From: the human T2T-CHM13v2.0 reference genome, Homo sapiens
DNA: 64,000 bases
NCBI RefSeq assembly: GCF_009914755.1
Contig: NC_060927.1
Direction: 5' to 3' (one strand)
The notes beneath the pieces are model-generated. The model made no database searches. It was not told the origin of the DNA and was given only the letters and a program-made list of their open reading frames with translations. This document shows positions 2,880 through 57,850 of the stretch, piece after piece; position 1 is the first letter of the stretch, and the number at the start of each line of letters is the position of its first letter. The position numbers were made by a program, and so were the translations under genes.

Positions 2880-5800
2880 AGCCATGATTTTTTTTTCCAT
2901 AACAACACATAATTCTTGGTAATAGTGTTCCAAGGAAACGCTTTGGGAAATGATTTAAGCCAAACCTTTCCTGAGTTTCCAAACTTGATTTCTGGCAAGT
3001 GAGGAAATTATAGAAACATAAATTTGGGCTTTAGTTCATCCATACTTTTATAGTAGGAAAATATCATTTTTAAATTATGCATGTATCTTTTTTTCCTTTG
3101 AATCCTTTATTCATTTCCTTCAGAATGAGGGTTATGGAAAATTAATCCCCGGTGGCAGAGTGAATCCCTTAAATTTCTTTTACCAAATAATCTTACCATT
3201 CCTATGTATGGTGTTGTTTATTTCACTGAAGTATGAATTTGAAGCAAGTACTCTAAGGAAGAAAAAATATAACAGTAAATATATTTTGTTCTTTTTTAAA
3301 TATCACATGGTTTTATTTCTTATCTGTTCTTAATCAGTTTTTATAAGGACCTCAGCCGTGAGCCTAGAGATAGAAAAGAAAGATGTTTCTTTTCACCTAT
3401 AGCATATTCGAAAGTTTAAATGAAGTTTATTCAGAGTCCTTAGTTTTACCAATTACTTTTTCCTTTCTTGGATGTACAAATCTTTAATACACTAAATGCA
3501 GCTTCTATAATTTTAAACAAATCCATTCTTCAAACCAAACCAAAGATAGAATAACTTTTATAAAACAGGAGACACTTTAGAGGTATAGTTAGTAGATATT
3601 TGTAATTTTCATGTGTTTGCAGACTCTGCAATGTTGCTGTCAATATATTTTTAGTTTCTTCCTATTTGATAAGGGTATACCATACAGATGCTGCTGTGGA
3701 TGCAGTATTGGCCCCAGTCAGAGTCTTGTTACCATGAGAATCTCTGCTCTAGGCACTATGGCCCTCCGTGGGCTTACTAAGCCAGACAAGCTTCCAAAGA
3801 GAATGTGATGTTTGCTGAACAACATGGAAATTGGATATAAAACCTTTATTTCTTTTTTAAATTAATTTTTAAATATCACATAGTTTTATTTATAAATGAA
3901 ATTAAAGAATGAATAACATTCATATTCAAACTGATGAAAAAATTGGCACAGTAGGTATATTACATTGGGCATTACTAAATAGTCTATGCCTCATGAATAA
4001 CTTATAACCAGAAACATTTTTGACACCCTCATTCTTTGTAAATTTCAAAGAATATTTGAAGTGATTTAATGAATATGGCAACTATGGAAGAAAATAGATT
4101 CAACAAACTAATACAATGACAGTTTCTGATTTTAAATTAAATACCTAGAAGTGATTTTAGGGGACTAAAATCACTAATAATTTTTCCAAGGTCAGCAACT
4201 AAAATTTCAAAAAATATAAAATATCTTAGAGTATCATTTATTCACACAATGGTCTTATTAAAGTCTTAGATGACAAATACCTCTGCTAGGTACTATAGAT
4301 TTTTATTGGAATAAGCCTCAAATCCTGGAACCTGAAAAAATACCCTACATTGGAATTCATTTTCAAGTACTTATGACTAGAATGTATTTAGCTTCAAAAC
4401 TATAATTTGATTTTCATTCACAATAGTTAAATAATTCTTTTGGATGGGCATTTTCAAATCAAGAAGACTAAATTCATTACTTTAATGAGATAAATTTTAA
4501 ATGAACCACTTTTTATAAAGCATTCATATTGGGTAATTTTTGTAATGCATTTCTCTTAATGCTTTCAAAATGTCCTTTCTCAGAACTCTTGTAAGGGAGG
4601 CTGAGTTAACAACCTATTATTATGTACTCCTTACTGAGCTGTTAATAGCTTTACAGTCTCTCAAAGAACACACCTGCTGCTCATAAAAACATTTGTGTTG
4701 CTACAGAATTTGGCTGTGTTTTAATATCACGTATTTGCAGTGACCTTGTAGAATCCGTACTGATTCTATATTTTTAGGGAAAAAACAACAATAAAGAACA
4801 TTGTCCATTTATTTGAGTATATTAATGGAAAATTATGAAATAATTTGATTAACCTAAGGGTTCTAATATTTGAAAAGTTGGTTTTCAATAATGGTTTTAA
4901 ATTTCTTGGTAATTTTTTACACTATGTGAGATTGTTTCTATTTTCATTTTTGAAAGTTTGTTATCTCAATTTATATGTGTTGAAATAGGTTTATTTTCAC
5001 ATATGTGTATATTTTAATTAGAAACTGATGGCTTAAATTCTATTAGAAATATCAACATTTCCATAGATTAATTGAAAAAAGTAAAAATTGAAATTAATGT
5101 AGACCTTTTAAAAACTTTAAGTCAAAAATATCATAAGTCTATAATGAGAGAATGTAAAATTTTAGTTAAGGCAGTATTTTTAAAGTTTGTCATGGTTGAA
5201 TAGAATATAAATTAATTGTTTTTGGCTAAGTTTCAGTTGGCAAAGGCAAATTGTTCCCCAAACCTGTGTTTGATCCTTCCATTTCAGACAAGGACATTTA
5301 AAAAAGGCAATCAATGCAATAATTATTTCCATATGTCCCTTGATTCGTGTGATTTTTATGGATAAACCACAGCAGGTGGATGAAATCTTTCCATCCTATC
5401 TAATTTAGTAATACCTGAATATATATAGCTATTACAACTCCTGTTATCCACAACTCCTTGGTAATTTTCCTCCTATTTATTGAATTATGCATCACAGCAT
5501 TTTTCTTTCTCATGTTTAACACGTTTATACTTTTAAAAGACCACCAGATAGTTCTTTTCATATTTTAAAAAGATCAACAGATGGACTTAGTTCAATTGTT
5601 GGTTAGCACAGGAATGAAGGGTTTTATTGCTGTCCACCTTCAACATGGCAAACAGATAGCGGTACCTGCCAGATGTATAGTCCTTCTAAGCTCCTAAAAC
5701 ATGCAATAATCAATGATTATTCCAAATCACTATTTTTTACTCTTGAATGTCAAAATGGTTTCATTGTACCTATGACAGCTACATTTACAACTAGTCAACT

Positions 5801-6377
5801 GGTCTTATCTACAGAAACAGGCAACTGACTTAAGACTCAAGTTACTGGCTATATAAAGATACCTCAAGACGTTGATGTTATTCCCACATATAGATCTCAA
5901 CTGCCACTTAATTACCTAAAGTGCCAGACCCCTGGGAATTTTGCTGACTTATCCTACTAATTTTCTTGACATGGAATTAAAAGGTGGTGGTGTTCTGGGA
6001 GATTAATTTACTAAACAACAAATGCAATTCCATCCACTAACTCAAGGTATAGTTTATTATTAAAATATTACTTCTTACTCAAAGTGACAAATGTTTTCAG
6101 CAACAACACAAATATCTATTTAATTACGTTCACAACAGCATTGATAATCATTCTAACATTTAATGAGGATGTCCCAGCTTAGAAATCACTTCACATGCAT
6201 TAACATTCGACTCATTACAATATTGTAAGGTGGATAGAACTGACGTTTTATGTTACTTTTTAACAAAGCATGCTGTGTCTCAGTAATAAGATGAAAGGCT
6301 TATGTTCACCTGTCTTGTAAGTCACAGAAAGAAGCACTGTTTCTTGAAATTCCAATCCAGTGCTCTTATTAATAAAG

Positions 6378-6758
6378 TGTATTAGTCTGTTCTCATACTG
6401 CTATGAAGATACTACCCAAGACTGGGTAATTTATAAAGGAATGAGGTTTAATTGACTCACAGTTCCACATGGCTGGCAAGGCCTCAGGAAACTTACAATC
6501 ATGTGTAAGGCAAAGAAGAAGCAAGGACCTTTTTCCCATGGTGGGAAGAGAGAGAAGAGCCAGAAGCGAATGGGTAAGAGCCCCTTATAAAACCACCATA
6601 TGTCGTGAGAACTCACTCACTATCACGAGAACAGCATGTGGGAAACCACCCCCATGACCCAATCACCTCCCACTGGGTTTCTTCCTTGACATATGGGGAT
6701 TATAGGGATTACAACAGGAGATGAGATTTGGGTGGGACCACAGAGCCAAACCACATCA
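6378..6758 (-). mobile_element. THE1D/MSTA-like solo LTR
   Basis: tgtattagtctgttctc ... agccaaaccacatca, with 5-bp TSD TAAAG at 6373-6377 and 6759-6763. Confidence 0.93.
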
Positions 6759-7165
6759 TAAAGTCATTTAGTTTGCAATATAGAAGATCCTGTTAGAAAC
6801 TATAAAAGAATTAGAAACCTCAGTTTAAAGCACTGTGAAGCTCATAGTCTTTTCATCTACGGCATAGATATCCTCCTAAACTCAGTATGGTGGTAAAAAC
6901 TGAAATGGAAATGCAAATAAGGAAAACTGGTTTGGCCTGTTCTCTACAATTTGCCTGTTCTCTATAGTTTGCCTTCATAGATGAGCACAGGTATGTAAGT
7001 TAATTGTTGTGATAAAAGAAATAAGAGTTTCGTTCTTCCTAATGAGTCTCTTACCTTACATAGTAAAAAGAGAAGTGAATATGTGTCTTGAGGTCATTAG
7101 TGTTATTTGATGAAGACTCAAAATCTCATGAAATACTAACAAAATATAATCTTTTTAAACCTTAA

Positions 7166-7759
7166 TTTTTTTTGGACATAGGCAAATCTCATTTTAATTG
7201 CAAAAGACTTCATTTACAGCACAGTCAATAATGAACCAACAGGAGAGTTGCTGACTTTGGAACATATGAATATATAAAAATCCCTTGCAATTCAGGTAGT
7301 CGAGATAATAAGGGCATGCAAGGAAAGCAATCCTCATTTTTCTGAAAAGTTTTACATTTTAAAAGGTGACTAGGCATACTTGGAAGTTCAAAGCAGTAGG
7401 ATGTACCTTGCAGGGAAAGAAGGAGGAAAACCCTTTTCCATGTTGTTAGAAAAATGTATATCAAATATATCCCAATTCCATTTGACAAAGTCAGGTGGAT
7501 GACCTCCTTGAACCAGGCTAGGGCAGAACACTTAGTAAAAGTGGGCCCTGGGTGAGGATGCGAATCCAGAAGAAGAGCACCAGATCCCCTGCAGTACCAA
7601 ACATATCCGTTCCACCCTCTAACACAGAAGAGGCACGTTGCCCCATGTCCCTGGACACGGGATACATGAGAACAGTCATCAGATGGTTACTACCCCCATG
7701 GCTTGGTGCTTTCTAATGGTGTTAATTCAGGCCATGGAGAAAATCCTTTACCACCAAAC
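7166..7759 (-). pseudogene. 5'-truncated processed retrocopy of an mRNA 3'UTR (resembles LAPTM4B 3'UTR)
   Basis: T8 tail remnant at 7166-7173; ATTAAA signal on - strand at 7193-7198; near-duplicated flanks ACCTTAA(A)TTTTT at ~7159 and ~7760; GC content above the flanks. Parent gene call is from memory only. Confidence 0.72.
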
Positions 7760-8420
7760 ACCTTAAATTTTTATGTTAGACTAAGTACTTTGAATTTCAG
7801 AGATTCTTATACTATGATTAGAATTGTGACATTTCTGTATATGGAATCCATATTATTATTTCTTACATCTGTGCTTCTCAATATATTACTGAAACAGAAA
7901 ATATAAAATCTAACATAGGTAATATGTAAATCACTTAGTGACATTTAGCTGTATTGCAATACCTCACATTGGAAGCTGCATTGTGTAATAAGTAACAGCA
8001 TAGAATTTAGAGCTAGACTTCCTAGGTTCAAATCCAAGCCCTATCAGTAATTTATTGAGTGATCTTGTCATCTGTAAGACTTAATTCATATAGTAGCTTT
8101 GAGAATTTTCTTGGTTTTGAGAGTTCTTCATGCCTACAACATAGTAAGCAGTATGAAAGTGTTCATATTAAAAAAAAGTTAACTGCAGTATGTCCTGTGT
8201 AAACTTTCAATTGATTTATTTTGACTAATTTGACATGTCATTTCAGGCTAAAAAGTCATACGTCCTTCCAAAGAACCAGATAATTGTAGTGTTTATTTTG
8301 GTTAAGTTTTGTGTGTGAAGGCAAAATAGCATCAGCCAATCTAGTGACAAAAAAATAGGATCAGTGAACTGTTCCATATTAAAATTGAGGACTGTTAAAT
8401 GCAGAATAATGTTTAATCTT

Positions 8421-53084: not shown

Positions 53085-53155
53085 ATGTCAGTGGTACATA
53101 AAAGCCAAGATGAAGTCAGAAGAGAAGAGAAGAAACCACTTACAGAATGGGCATT
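53085..53155 (+). CDS. EPHA6: EPHA6 juxtamembrane exon ((R)CQWYIKAKMKSEEKRRNHLQNGH(L))
   Basis: T-rich tract + taaaAG acceptor, T|GTAAGT donor; 71 nt (phase 2 to 1); basic stop-transfer segment ending in the EphA-typical NGH. Confidence 0.93.
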
Positions 53156-54034
53156 GTAAGTAGCGCAGGGACTTTCTTTCATTATTTTGTACTGTTCCAG
53201 CACTTCAGGAGTTCATTCAAACTGTATCTATTGAGTTGAGAAAAAAAGAAAAAAAAAATCACTTCCAACCTTTCAGCATTAAGAATTTTCATCTGGTTTC
53301 CAGGTTTGTTGGTGAAAGTTGCACCTGCTTCTCATTAAATAACATTACCTTGTTCCCAATTCTGCTTGCTGGAAAACACAACAGACTGAATTTGCTAAAA
53401 ATAATAGTTGACTGATTTTATCAAGTTATTTACCACTCACAATGGCTCTAAAACATGAGTTGATTTTATCTAGTGGAACATTAGACATAGAAATAAATAT
53501 TAGGGAATCTTTATTCCTTCTTGTAGGGACTGTCTTTTAAATATATAACAAATCAATTTACAATTCATTAATACTAAAAAAGAATATCAGCTCTTTAACT
53601 CTTAGAATATGTATGAAATCCTTGGGCTGACTACAAGGTTATATTCATTTGAGAGATCTATTCCCAAGCAACCTATAATTACCACTATAGCTGGTTTGAT
53701 AACTGACAACTTCTCCTCCTCAACATCCACCTCCACCTCCACCTCCAAATTGCAAACTACTTCAGCAAGACAGTTTTTCTATTGTGAGACACTGAATTAA
53801 CAAGAAAGGGATGTTCTCTAATTAACCACAGTGTAGAGATAATATGCAAGGCAACTTAACTGTTTTATCTTTTATTTCAAATTGAGCAAAAGATAATAAA
53901 GGACATTTCAATCTATACCACCCTCCAGGAAAGGGAAAGGATTTAAGTGAGGAACTTTTATTTTTTATTATTATTTTTTAAGTATAATTAGAATTTTTCT
54001 TTTTTTTCTTTCTTTTTATTTATTTATTTTTTTT

Positions 54035-54967
54035 AGTATTTATTGATCATTCTTGGCTGTTTCTCGGAGAGGGGGATTTGGCAGGGTCATAGGACAATAG
54101 TGGAGGGAAGGTCAGCAGATAAACATGTGAACAAGGGTTCTCTGGTTTTCCTAGGCAGAGGACCCTGCGGCCTTCCGCAGTGTTTGTGTCCCTGGGTACT
54201 TGAGATTAGGGAGTGGTGATGACTCTTAACCAGCATGCTGCCTTCAAGCATCTGTTTAACAAAGCACATCTTGCACCGCCCTTAATCCATTTAACCCTGA
54301 GTGGACACAGCACATGTTTCAGAGAGCAAGGGGTTGGGGGTAAGGTTATAGATTAACAGCATCCCAAGGCAGAAGAATTTTTCTTAGTACAGAACAAAAT
54401 GGAGTCTCCTATGTCTAATTCTTTCTACACAGACACAGTAACAATCTGATCTCTCTTTCTTTTCCCCACATTTCCCCCTTTTCTATTTGACAAAACCGCC
54501 ATCGTCATCATGGCCCGTTCTCAATGAGCTGTTGGGTACACCTCCCAGACGGGGTGGCGGCCGGGCAGAGGGGCTCCTCACTTCCCAGATGGGGCGGCTG
54601 CCGAGCGGAGGGACTCCTCACTTCTCAGATGGGGCGGCCGGGCAGAGGCGCTCCTCATATCCCAGACGGGGTGGCAGAGCAGAGGCGCTCCCCACATCTC
54701 AGACAATGGGCGGCCGGGCAAAGACGCTCCTCACTTCCTAGACGGGATGGCGGCCGGGAAGAGGCGCTCCTCACTTCCCAGACTGGGTGGCTGGGCAGAG
54801 GGGCTCCTCACATCCCAGATGATGGGCGGCCAGGCAGAGAGGCTCCTCACTTCCCAGACGGGGTGGCAGCGGGGCAGAGGCTGCAATCTCGACACTTTGG
54901 GAGGCCAAGGCAGGTGGCTGGGAGGTGGAGGTTGTAGAGAGCCGAGATCACGCCACTGCACTCCAGC
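54035..54967 (-). mobile_element. SVA body, old subfamily (SVA_A/B-like): SINE-R ~54035-54535, VNTR ~54536-54880, Alu-like 3' part ~54881-54967
   Basis: Reverse complement of the SINE-R end (agtatttattgatcattctt...), GC-rich ~37-40 bp VNTR units (ctcctcacttcccagacggggtggcggccgggcagagg), and variants 'ggttatagattaacagcatccc' and 'aaaatggagtctcctatg' that I associate with older SVAs. No CCCTCT hexamer. Confidence 0.92.
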
Positions 54968-55296
54968 CGAACAATTTCCTCATGAAGTACTGGAAAAGAC
55001 AACCTTTTTCTCCATTACTATTTGGACTTTTAGATCACGTACATAACCAGGAATTGAATAAATAATGAATGTTTTCATAAAGAGTATCCGTCTTGGAGGG
55101 AGATTCCAGTTGTAGAGATGTTTCACTTGTGCAAAATATCCAACATAGCTATTCTGAGAAGGAGTTTCTACTCCCTGAAATTTTTTGCTGTGGGTTTTAT
55201 CTGTTCGCCTTTCTCCAAAATAATACAGGCTTTCCTTTGCAGTTAAAAATATTTCAGAGGCAATAAGGAAGGCACAAACCATAGTTCCGGTTCTTC
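54968..55296 (-). pseudogene. Spliced TPTE/TPTE2-family (PTEN-like phosphatase end + C2 domain start) fragment captured 5' of the SVA
   Basis: Translates (G)[72 protein letters not shown]...[15 protein letters not shown]; intronless; lacks the catalytic HC of the HCxxGxxR loop; TGA at 54980-54982. Confidence 0.92.
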
Positions 55297-55498
55297 CTCC
55301 GGCGCGGGGCTAAGTGCAGGCCCGGGGGTCCCTAGAGCCGCCGGGGCGCGGCGCGTCCGGCGCTGGGGGACTGTTGGGTCAGAAAGTCTTCAGGGAGCAG
55401 CTGTTGCGCCCTCCCTAGGCCCGCCGCTTGGAGACGCCCCGCCCCCTGCCTTCAACGGCCGCCCGGCCCCGCCCCGCACCGCCCCGGCCCCGCCCCCT
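55297..55498 (-). promoter_or_regulatory. Retroposed CpG-rich first exon/proximal promoter fragment (TPTE-family exon 1-like) with three GC boxes
   Basis: Very GC/CpG-rich 200 bp; GGGGCGGGGC on the - strand at 55436-55445, 55466-55475 and 55487-55496; ends ...CCGGAG joined directly to the TPTE coding exon. Resemblance to the TPTE 5'UTR is from recall. Confidence 0.7.
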
Positions 55499-56762
55499 GT
55501 GAGGAACTTTTATACAGTAAGTCTGACTCTTACTGCACTGGCAGAGCTGAGAGAACTGATATCTGGCATGGGATAACATGGAAAGGCTGTAAACAGATTG
55601 CAGAAACCTGGATCCAGACACCTGGGCTGATGACTTAACGCAGGGCAACCTTAAGATTCACTGCAGGGCATTTAGTACTGCTATGCAGAGGGAAAAGGTG
55701 CTCCTGAGGCATTTATTATCTGTTTTCCAAGAGGTAGGTTAGCATAAACCAAACCAGATGGGCCCAGCATGAAGCGATGAAAATAACTCGAGACAGCCAA
55801 GGAGGTAGAAGAAAGTTAACCAACTGATGTTTAAGAAGACGTTGATAAGTTTAAATTAGTAACCAGGTATTCAAAATTGGAATTCAGTTTGGTTGTTTAT
55901 TTTCCTCTTTACTACACATATGTTTATAAGAAAAAAATGTGATATTTACTGATCTTATTCTATAGAAATGTGTACCACCTTAAATAATTGAATAGTTTAA
56001 TAGTTAAAACCACATATGAGTTAATAAATGATGCTTGTTATCTGTGCCTAGCATAATATTATCAACATGACCACAGATCTGATTAGATATCACTAATAAT
56101 TAGTAGTGGCTACTAGGTTTGAGGTTATAGAACTCAGTCTGAAATCACAAATTCTACTAAGTTGTTATGAAAATATCATATGGAATATAAAATAGAGGTA
56201 CAAACTATCTGTTCTCATTTTCTTCAATGGATGCTTTGAGAAGTCAAGGAAAGCATGACATGTTAAAATTAGTGTCAGGTCTGGGTATACCTGGAAATAT
56301 GCTTTTCTGGTGCTAATTTGAGAAATATTAATTTTCTCACGGTCCATATGCAGCACTAAGAAGACAGAAGACAAAATGTGTAAATGAAGGCAATGGGCAT
56401 AGAAGGACTAAGGAAGCAAATTGCTGCTAATATTGGGCATTTCAGCACCTCCTCTAAACTTTATTACCTTTTGTTTGTTTGTTTTTGATTTTTTTGTTTA
56501 TATGTTTTGCAAGGAGAGTCAAACAACAGTTAACGCTGGGTATTATAAGACTTTCAAAATCTAAGAAGCAACAAAACCAAATACCATCCACTCTGCCACA
56601 AATTTCACATTGGTCTTTTAATCCCTACTAGTTTGTATTCAATAAAGGCTCTCTGTGTGATTATTGCCTGTAAAACCATACCTAAGATATTCGGAACGAT
56701 AGAAAGATATATAAGAAATGACCTCCTGTCTAGAGATCTAAAATGGAAAATGGAAATTAATG

Positions 56763-57724: not shown

Positions 57725-57850
57725 TGCGCTTCCCGGGAATTAAAACTTACATTGATCCAGATACATATGAAGACCCATCCCTAGCAGTCCATGAATTTGC
57801 AAAGGAGATTGATCCCTCAAGAATTCGTATTGAGAGAGTCATTGGGGCAG
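57725..57850 (+). CDS. EPHA6: EPHA6 juxtamembrane tyrosines and kinase domain start ((L)[41 protein letters not shown](G))
   Basis: gttgcAG acceptor, CAG|GTAAAT donor; 126 nt (phase 1 to 1); hallmark Eph motifs YIDPxTYEDP, EFAKEID and the start of the Gly-rich loop VIGAG. Confidence 0.98.

What the first reader, a model, noticed from the sequence alone, without database searches (positions are those of the whole stretch)
53947..55513. Exon-trapping chimeric retroposon: first exon + PTEN-like TPTE exons spliced into an SVA and reinserted as one unit antisense in EPHA6
Seen: one 15-bp TSD pair (GTGAGGAACTTTTAT, with an L1-endonuclease-like TTTT/A end) brackets everything. The SVA lacks its hexamer and most of its Alu-like domain and starts at GCTGGAGTGCAGTGG, fused to ...AATTGTTCG of an intronless TPTE-like sequence. 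Established: that position follows 'cccAG' in the SVA Alu-like region, a splice acceptor used in SVA exon trapping, and 5'-transducing SVA groups including TPTE-derived ones have been described, so the class is not new. Inference: this copy came from a spliced RNA of a TPTE-family paralogue containing an intronic SVA and was mobilised by L1 machinery, making it a gene-fragment shuttle with a host promoter in place of the SVA 5' end.
Basis: partly seen in the sequence, partly recalled or inferred. Interest (0 to 1): 0.8.

Follow-up and report, generated by a model that had tools for sequence, protein, structure and literature searches.

The report
TPTE exons trapped by an SVA
A piece of spliced TPTE-family messenger RNA became fused by splicing to an SVA retrotransposon and was pasted as one unit into an EPHA6 intron; this is a clean but ordinary example of a known way that mobile elements move gene fragments around.

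Summary
One exact 15-bp target-site duplication (53947-53961, 55499-55513) brackets a minus-strand element. It consists of a 202-nt CpG-rich TPTE-type first exon, four intronless TPTE-family exons (62+81+106+80 nt), then an SVA lacking the hexamer and most of the Alu-like domain, with a short VNTR, SINE-R, AATAAA and an A-rich tail.

Every exon boundary coincides with AG/GT splice sites in nine genomic paralogues. The SVA part starts directly after the CCCAG that precedes it in 4 of 4 canonical SVAs. It is therefore an SVA exon-trapping chimera copied once by L1 machinery.

- The 143-nt block is two exons.
- No other copy shares the junction, so it is a singleton, not a group.
- None of the 10 TPTE-family paralogues in this assembly has an SVA downstream of the trapped donor.

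One thing is new. A second, apparently older chimera on chr15 uses the same donor exon. It has a different SVA acceptor, a different first exon and a different source paralogue, so it is an independent event.

The class is well known (SVA_F1/MAST2). This is a new member, inert as far as can be seen. Interest is low to moderate.

The parts
55499..55513 (-). Target-site duplication, 5' copy in element orientation
   Evidence: Exact 15-mer, one of only 2 in the window. It is the only bracketing direct repeat (family D6).
55297..55498 (-). TPTE-type first exon: a 202-nt CpG-island piece with 78% GC, CpG o/e 0.82 and three GGGGCGGGG boxes. It is neither annotated nor masked.
   Evidence: 87-93% identical to CpG-island paralogues at C21:10605047, C13:13539591, C20:55366351 and C22:38863043. 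It ends exactly where those loci have a GTGAGCC donor. GC boxes.
55235..55296 (-). TPTE-family exon A (62 nt). It starts at the GRTG end of the phosphatase P-loop.
   Evidence: Flanked by ag in 9 of 9 and gt in 8 of 9 genomic paralogues.
55154..55234 (-). TPTE-family exon B (81 nt)
   Evidence: ag and gt flanks in 9 of 9 paralogues; 1 difference from chr21 TPTE.
55048..55153 (-). TPTE-family exon C (106 nt)
   Evidence: ag in 7 of 9 and gt in 9 of 9 paralogues.
54968..55047 (-). TPTE-family exon D (80 nt). It carries a private TTA>TGA stop at 54980-54982 and ends at the donor ...AATTGTTCG.
   Evidence: ag and gt flanks in 9 of 9 paralogues, with GTAAGAG following in the genome. ORF 54980-55282, 100 aa. 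PDB 9c49_A TPTE2 residues 307-412, E 1.1e-29.
54882..54967 (-). Remnant of the SVA Alu-like domain, beginning right after the first CCCAG acceptor
   Evidence: 96% identical to canonical SVAs. CCCAG lies immediately 5' in 4 of 4 canonical copies.
54539..54881 (-). SVA VNTR, short, about 9 units of 37-40 nt
   Evidence: TRF periods 37, 40 and 116; direct-repeat family D1.
54035..54538 (-). SVA SINE-R with AATAAA at 54039-54044
   Evidence: 97-98% identical over 495 nt to 39 other SVA copies. The signal was read.
53962..54034 (-). A-rich tail, interrupted by a 14-nt non-A stretch
   Evidence: Read. The interruption has no other match in the genome or in the TPTE loci held.
53947..53961 (-). Target-site duplication, 3' copy, with a T-rich (CTTTTAT) end on the + strand next to the tail

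Best explanation
A germline transcript of a TPTE-lineage paralogue started in its CpG-island first exon. It was spliced from exon 1 directly to four exons encoding the C-terminal third of the phosphatase domain and the start of the C2 domain. From the donor of the last of these it spliced into the first CAG acceptor of the Alu-like region of a sense-oriented SVA lying downstream. It was polyadenylated at the SVA's own AATAAA. L1 machinery then reverse-transcribed this chimeric RNA once, by target-primed reverse transcription, into an EPHA6 intron in antisense orientation.

Shown: the anatomy, the exact splice-site junctions, the single TSD, and a sister position to the TPTE clade.

Inferred: that the SVA lay in cis in a paralogue that is now lost or absent from this assembly; that the source RNA was made in the germline; and an age of very roughly 10 Myr. 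The copy left no progeny and its TPTE reading frame is broken, so it is most likely inert.
For: - One exact 15-bp TSD brackets the unit and there is no internal pair.
- The 5' 531 nt map as five separate pieces, collinear and on one strand in TPTE-family loci. On C21 they lie at 10605047-259, 10536212-272, 10534363-445, 10530647-762 and 10528642-722.
- Boundaries fall on ag in 34 of 36 and gt in 35 of 36 exon copies across 9 paralogues. Exon 1 ends at a GTGAGCC donor in 4 of 4 genomic homologues.
- The SVA part starts right after CCCAG in 4 of 4 canonical SVAs.
- VNTR, SINE-R, AATAAA and an A-rich tail are all present.
- A second chimera on C15 (about 32886128-32890766) has its own TSD (AGAAAATGTA) and poly(A). 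It uses the same donor and joins the second CCCAG, 50 nt further 3'. It has a 12-nt longer exon D that matches intron sequence of the chr13 paralogues, and a different first exon that ends at a GTGAG donor in 5 of 5 paralogues. Splicing of this donor into an SVA therefore happened at least twice.
- The tree of exons A-D places the window copy as sister to the chr21/13p/14p TPTE clade (80/82), with a terminal branch of 0.015 and 4 private changes in 329 nt.
- The mechanism is in print. Passages of Hancks & Kazazian 2016 (PMC4859970) and Damert 2018 (PMC6139936) describe transcription from an upstream exon, splicing into an SVA and retrotransposition of the chimera.
Against: - None of the 10 genomic paralogues holding exon D and its intron (15 of 15 candidates scored) has an SVA in the 7.6-10 kb downstream. 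That stretch covers all three remaining coding exons in TPTE. A further 10 kb of the chr21, TPTE2 and chrY copies also has none. The only SINE-R-like hits are a roughly 0.94-kb solo LTR-like element inside an Alu, at 82% identity and with no VNTR.
- The two chimeras come from different paralogue lineages and from SVAs of different age: 97-98% versus 89-92% identity to the best other SVAs. A cis model therefore needs two separate SVA-bearing source loci, both now missing.
- Splicing from exon 1 directly to exon A skips about 69 kb of gene on chr21. No data here show that isoform.
Confidence: 0.9

Rival explanations
1. Two separate insertions: an ordinary processed pseudogene (TPTE2P7) that landed beside, or was hit by, a 5'-truncated SVA.
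For: The two halves are treated apart in the table supplied with the finding: a pseudogene at 54968-55297 and a masked repeat at 53949-54972.
Against: - Only one TSD pair exists and it brackets both halves.
- There is no poly(A), no TPTE 3' exons and no 3' UTR at the junction. The TPTE part stops at an internal exon donor.
- The SVA starts exactly after an AG.
- The same donor-to-SVA arrangement recurs on chr15.
Confidence: 0.02
2. The chimera formed by L1 reverse-transcriptase template switching from SVA RNA to a TPTE RNA during integration, as in U6-L1-type chimeric retrocopies (class recalled, not read here).
For: No cis source locus with an SVA was found.
Against: The switch would have had to leave the SVA exactly after a CAG and enter the TPTE RNA exactly at an exon's last base, and to do so twice independently. 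Template switches are not tied to splice sites (established knowledge).
Confidence: 0.02
3. Trans-splicing joined the exon D donor of a TPTE-family pre-mRNA to an SVA transcript made elsewhere in the genome, and the product was then retrotransposed.
For: - All 10 extant paralogues lack a downstream SVA.
- Two different paralogues and two SVAs of different age used the same donor.
Against: - Cis exon trapping by intronic SVAs is the documented route (PMC4859970 passages).
- TPTE copies sit in pericentromeric and acrocentric duplications, which vary between haplotypes (recalled), so lost or unsampled source copies are plausible.
- No direct evidence for trans-splicing was found here.
Confidence: 0.05

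Closest known systems
Human SVA_F1 (MAST2 exon 1 spliced into an SVA)
   Same: A GC-rich first exon of a host gene replaces the hexamer and most of the Alu-like domain through splicing into an acceptor in that domain, and L1 mobilises the chimera (passages of PMC4859970, and PMC6139936). [quoted passage not shown]
   Different: The window copy uses an acceptor 50 nt further 5'. It carries four further internal coding exons, not only exon 1. It has no progeny: the junction is unique at up to 3 mismatches. SVA_F1 is an active subfamily.
Chimpanzee pt_SVA_D6 (STK40 exon 1), with extra exons of 8 other genes
   Same: A spliced first exon joined to an SVA. Some members carry further host exons as 5' additions (PMC6139936 passage).
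   Different: That is a family of 94 elements in another species. The two human TPTE chimeras here are single, independent events.
Pathogenic SVA exon trapping in transcripts (FKTN, CLN7)
   Same: An intronic or 3' sense SVA supplies a splice acceptor to an upstream donor (passages of PMC10681720).
   Different: Those are RNA-level events at the resident SVA. Here the trapped RNA was itself copied back into DNA at a new locus.
Ordinary L1-mediated processed pseudogene
   Same: Intronless exons, a TSD, an A-rich tail and a T-rich target site.
   Different: It has no host 3' exons and no host poly(A) site. The 3' end and poly(A) signal belong to the SVA.

Membership tests
SVA exon-trapping chimera (spliced 5' addition retrotransposed with the SVA) | SVA body with VNTR, SINE-R, its own AATAAA and an A-rich tail at the 3' end | tested here: met
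SVA exon-trapping chimera (spliced 5' addition retrotransposed with the SVA) | One target-site duplication around host part plus SVA; T-rich L1-type target | tested here: met
   The nick position is ambiguous by 2 nt because the tail ends ...AAAAAAT.
SVA exon-trapping chimera (spliced 5' addition retrotransposed with the SVA) | Host part is intronless and ends at the last base of an exon with a GT donor in the parent gene | tested here: met
   The exon D donor is gt in 9 of 9 paralogues.
SVA exon-trapping chimera (spliced 5' addition retrotransposed with the SVA) | SVA part begins directly 3' of an AG of the canonical SVA | tested here: met
   CCCAG is present in 4 of 4 canonical copies.
SVA exon-trapping chimera (spliced 5' addition retrotransposed with the SVA) | Identifiable source gene copy with a sense SVA downstream of the donor | tested here: not met
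   0 of 10 paralogues in this assembly. Other haplotypes and other species could not be searched.
5'-transducing SVA group or subfamily (such as SVA_F1) | Several copies sharing the same 5' addition and junction | tested here: not met
   The 29-nt junction is unique at up to 3 mismatches. Only two processed exon D copies exist, and they have different junctions.
Canonical full-length SVA | CCCTCT hexamer and a complete Alu-like domain at the 5' end | tested here: not met
   About 330 nt present in canonical copies are absent here.
Functional PTEN/TPTE-type phosphatase gene copy | Catalytic P-loop cysteine and an intact phosphatase plus C2 reading frame | tested here: not met
   The fragment starts at GRTG, after the cysteine. 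It aligns only to TPTE2 residues 307-412. Pfam DSPc scores 13 bits against a cut-off of 33.5. There is a private TGA at 54980-54982.

The most novel reading that the evidence does not exclude
The exon D donor of TPTE-family genes fed into SVA RNAs at least twice. The two events differ in paralogue lineage, SVA age, acceptor and first exon, yet no extant copy in a complete human genome keeps an SVA downstream. Either the two retrocopies are the only surviving record of lost or haplotype-specific SVA-bearing TPTE paralogues in acrocentric or pericentromeric duplications, or, more boldly, TPTE pre-mRNA and SVA RNA were joined by trans-splicing in germ cells. The probability given is for the trans-splicing reading.
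Probability: 0.05. Interest if true: 0.6.

Novelty: new member of a known kind. Interest (0 to 1): 0.3.

Why it matters
It is a textbook-clear case of exon shuffling by SVA. All five splice junctions, the acceptor and the TSD are intact, and it includes 201 nt of first exon that the supplied gene table leaves out of TPTE2P7.

With its chr15 sibling it shows repeated capture of the same four TPTE exons. The two copies preserve the sequence of source paralogues that are no longer present in this assembly, which may help reconstruct the history of the fast-evolving TPTE family.

It does not change what is known about SVA biology. Nothing suggests an effect on EPHA6.

Tried and rejected
- **Source SVA.** I fetched 7.6-10 kb downstream of exon D in 10 paralogues, plus a further 10 kb in three of them. 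None holds an SVA. The SINE-R-like hits in two chr13 copies are a solo LTR-like element inside an Alu.
- **Same-junction siblings.** None in the genome.
- **Possible 3' transduction.** The 14-nt interruption of the tail has no match in 204 kb of held loci. A 30-mer around it has no second match in the genome.
- **CpG retention in the exon 1 piece as a sign of a hypomethylated, active promoter.** About 3-4 CpGs are lost against the chr20/chr22 homologues, by my own reading of the alignment. This is too few sites to tell.
- **SVA subfamily and age.** No repeat library or primate genome is on hand.
- **Literature.** Six searches joining SVA with TPTE, TPTE2 or TPTE2P7 found nothing relevant. Hancks 2009, Damert 2009 and the 2010 review are not held. 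Whether this element is listed in those papers' tables therefore stays open.

Full report
**Observation**

The 15-mer GTGAGGAACTTTTAT occurs exactly twice in the window, at 53947-53961 and 55499-55513. It is the only direct repeat that brackets the unit, and no other pair flanks either half.

Read on the minus strand, the element runs in this order:
- TSD.
- A 202-nt GC-rich piece (55498-55297).
- 329 nt of TPTE-like sequence (55296-54968).
- The junction ...AATTGTTCG|GCTGGAGTGCAGTGG...
- An 86-nt remnant of the SVA Alu-like domain.
- A short VNTR at 54539-54881, about 9 units of 37-40 nt.
- SINE-R with AATAAA at 54039-54044.
- A 73-nt A-rich tail.
- TSD.

On the + strand the tail-side TSD ends CTTTTAT. 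This fits the T-rich L1 endonuclease preference (established knowledge). The exact nick is ambiguous by 2 nt.

EPHA6 is on the + strand in the annotation supplied. The element is therefore antisense, in the intron between exons 53085-53155 and 57725-57850.

**The host part is spliced RNA**

The window's own genome could be searched. The 531 nt upstream of the junction hit as separate pieces (40 of 44 candidates scored). On C21 the pieces lie at 10605047-259, 10536212-272, 10534363-445, 10530647-762 and 10528642-722. They are collinear and on one strand. The same pattern appears in copies on C13, C14 and C24.

Exact extraction from nine paralogues gives exons of 62, 81, 106 and 80 nt. They are flanked by ag in 34 of 36 and gt in 35 of 36 exon copies. 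The exceptions are 'ac' before exon C in two chr13 copies and 'tt' after exon A on chrY.

The GC-rich piece ends exactly where four genomic homologues (C21, C13p, C20, C22) have a GTGAGCC donor. Those four loci are homologous beyond the exon on both sides. They are duplicated CpG islands, not retrocopies.

The piece is 78% GC with CpG o/e 0.82. It holds the window's only three GGGGCGGGG boxes. The supplied gene table places TPTE2P7 at 54968-55297, so the exon 1 piece is unannotated.

**The SVA side is a splice acceptor**

In 4 of 4 canonical full-length SVAs fetched from this genome, the bases just 5' of GCTGGAGTGCAGTGG are ...GGTGCCCAG. Upstream of that lie about 330 nt of hexamer and Alu-like sequence that this copy lacks. 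Both sides of the junction are thus splice sites.

This matches the documented route. Transcription starts in an upstream exon, the RNA splices into an SVA, and the chimera is retrotransposed (passages of PMC4859970; passages of PMC6139936).

**What the fragment encodes**

The longest ORF (54980-55282, 100 aa) aligns to a TPTE2 structure, 9c49_A residues 307-412, with E 1.1e-29. It also aligns to Ci-VSP and PTEN. It starts at the GRTG that ends the P-loop, so the catalytic cysteine is absent.

Pfam gives only a sub-threshold DSPc match, 13 bits against a cut-off of 33.5. A private TTA>TGA change closes the frame in exon D. The copy is not a functional phosphatase gene.

**Siblings**

The 29-nt junction is unique in the genome at up to 3 mismatches. 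This is a singleton, not a transduction group.

A query of exon D plus its intron (15 of 15 candidates scored) found 10 genomic paralogues and only two processed copies: this one and one on C15.

The C15 element (about 32886128-32890766) has these features:
- It has its own TSD (AGAAAATGTA) and poly(A).
- It has the same exons A-D and the same donor.
- Its exon D is 12 nt longer, and the extra bases match the intron of several chr13 paralogues, which carry an upstream AG there.
- Its first exon is a different 217-nt piece. That piece lies about 0.8 kb upstream of exon A in the paralogues and ends at a GTGAG donor in 5 of 5 of them.
- It joins the SVA at the second CCCAG, 50 nt further 3', in an ungapped alignment. 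[quoted passage not shown]

It is therefore an independent splicing and retrotransposition event.

**Source and age**

In a tree of exons A-D (329 columns) the window copy is sister to the identical chr21/13p/14p TPTE sequences. Support is modest, 80/82. Its terminal branch is 0.015, with 4 private changes. The TPTE clade sits on a long stem of 0.056. The chr15 copy falls in the TPTE2-like polytomy with a terminal branch of 0.025.

The window's SINE-R is 97-98% identical to 39 other SVAs (40 of 1944 candidates scored). The chr15 SVA part reaches only 89-92% (40 of 2677 scored). This suggests that the chr15 SVA is the older of the two; no subfamily could be assigned.

By inference from about 1.2% private change and a neutral rate near 1e-9 per site per year (recalled), the window insertion is roughly 10 Myr old. 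The error on this is wide. No primate genome was available to test it.

**The failed prediction**

None of the 10 paralogues has an SVA in the 7.6-10 kb after exon D. In TPTE the three remaining coding exons lie about 4.0, 5.5 and 7.3 kb downstream, so that stretch covers the rest of the gene. A further 10 kb of the chr21, TPTE2 and chrY copies has no match to the element at all.

The only SINE-R-like hits, in two chr13 copies, are a roughly 0.94-kb solo LTR-like element inside an Alu, with no VNTR.

The source loci are therefore absent from this assembly. They may be lost, haplotype-specific, or, less likely, never in cis.

Splicing from exon 1 to exon A skips about 69 kb on chr21. It may instead reflect a rearranged source paralogue.

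**Verdict**

The claims of a 'shuttle with a host promoter' and of an extant source are not supported.

The class is known: SVA_F1/MAST2 in human and pt_SVA_D6/STK40 in chimpanzee. I found no held paper that names a TPTE-SVA chimera.

I rate it a new member of a known kind, with interest 0.3. The small surprise is the second, independent capture of the same donor.

Noticed in passing
L022 (G000:C15:32883000-32892999), element at about 3129-7767: A second TPTE-exon/SVA chimera on chr15. It has a 217-nt alternative first exon, exons A-D (D 12 nt longer), junction at the second CCCAG of the SVA, a long VNTR, TSD AGAAAATGTA and poly(A).
   Followed up: yes
L022 5402-7512: A 2.1-kb later insertion inside the SINE-R of the chr15 element. 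It starts with a long T run (an antisense poly(A)) and is flanked by the duplication GCAAGATGTGCTTTGTT. Its identity was not determined.
   Followed up: no
L003 (C20:55364851-55368050), L006 (C22:38861543-38864695), L004, L005: The TPTE-type first exon lies in a CpG island with paralogues on chr20 and chr22. Homology extends on both sides. About 300 nt downstream is an ATG-starting exon, open on chr20 and chr22 and carrying a stop on chr21 and 13p. This suggests that the TPTE promoter was captured by segmental duplication from another gene.
   Followed up: partly
L025 about 6857-7795 and L026 2355-3295 (chr13 24.17 Mb and 23.79 Mb paralogues): A solo LTR-like element of about 0.94 kb, 82% identical to SINE-R, inserted in an Alu in the intron after exon D. 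It is not an SVA.
   Followed up: partly
Exons A-D of C21, C13p and C14p copies: The three acrocentric TPTE copies are identical over 329 nt and sit on a long stem (0.056), against 0.01-0.035 for other lineages. This points to fast change in the TPTE lineage after the window copy's source split off.
   Followed up: no
G000:C13:40054995-40055651: A further TPTE-family fragment holding exon D and its intron, 92% identical to TPTE2. It was not seen in the first search.
   Followed up: partly
window 53975-53995: The A-rich tail is interrupted by a 14-nt non-A stretch that could be a minimal 3' transduction. It has no second match in the genome.
   Followed up: yes
L047-L051, about 0.8 kb upstream of exon A in TPTE paralogues: The 217-nt alternative first exon of the chr15 copy overlaps a dispersed repeat, with 76-82% matches across many chromosomes. 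This suggests a repeat-derived internal promoter in TPTE-family genes.
   Followed up: no
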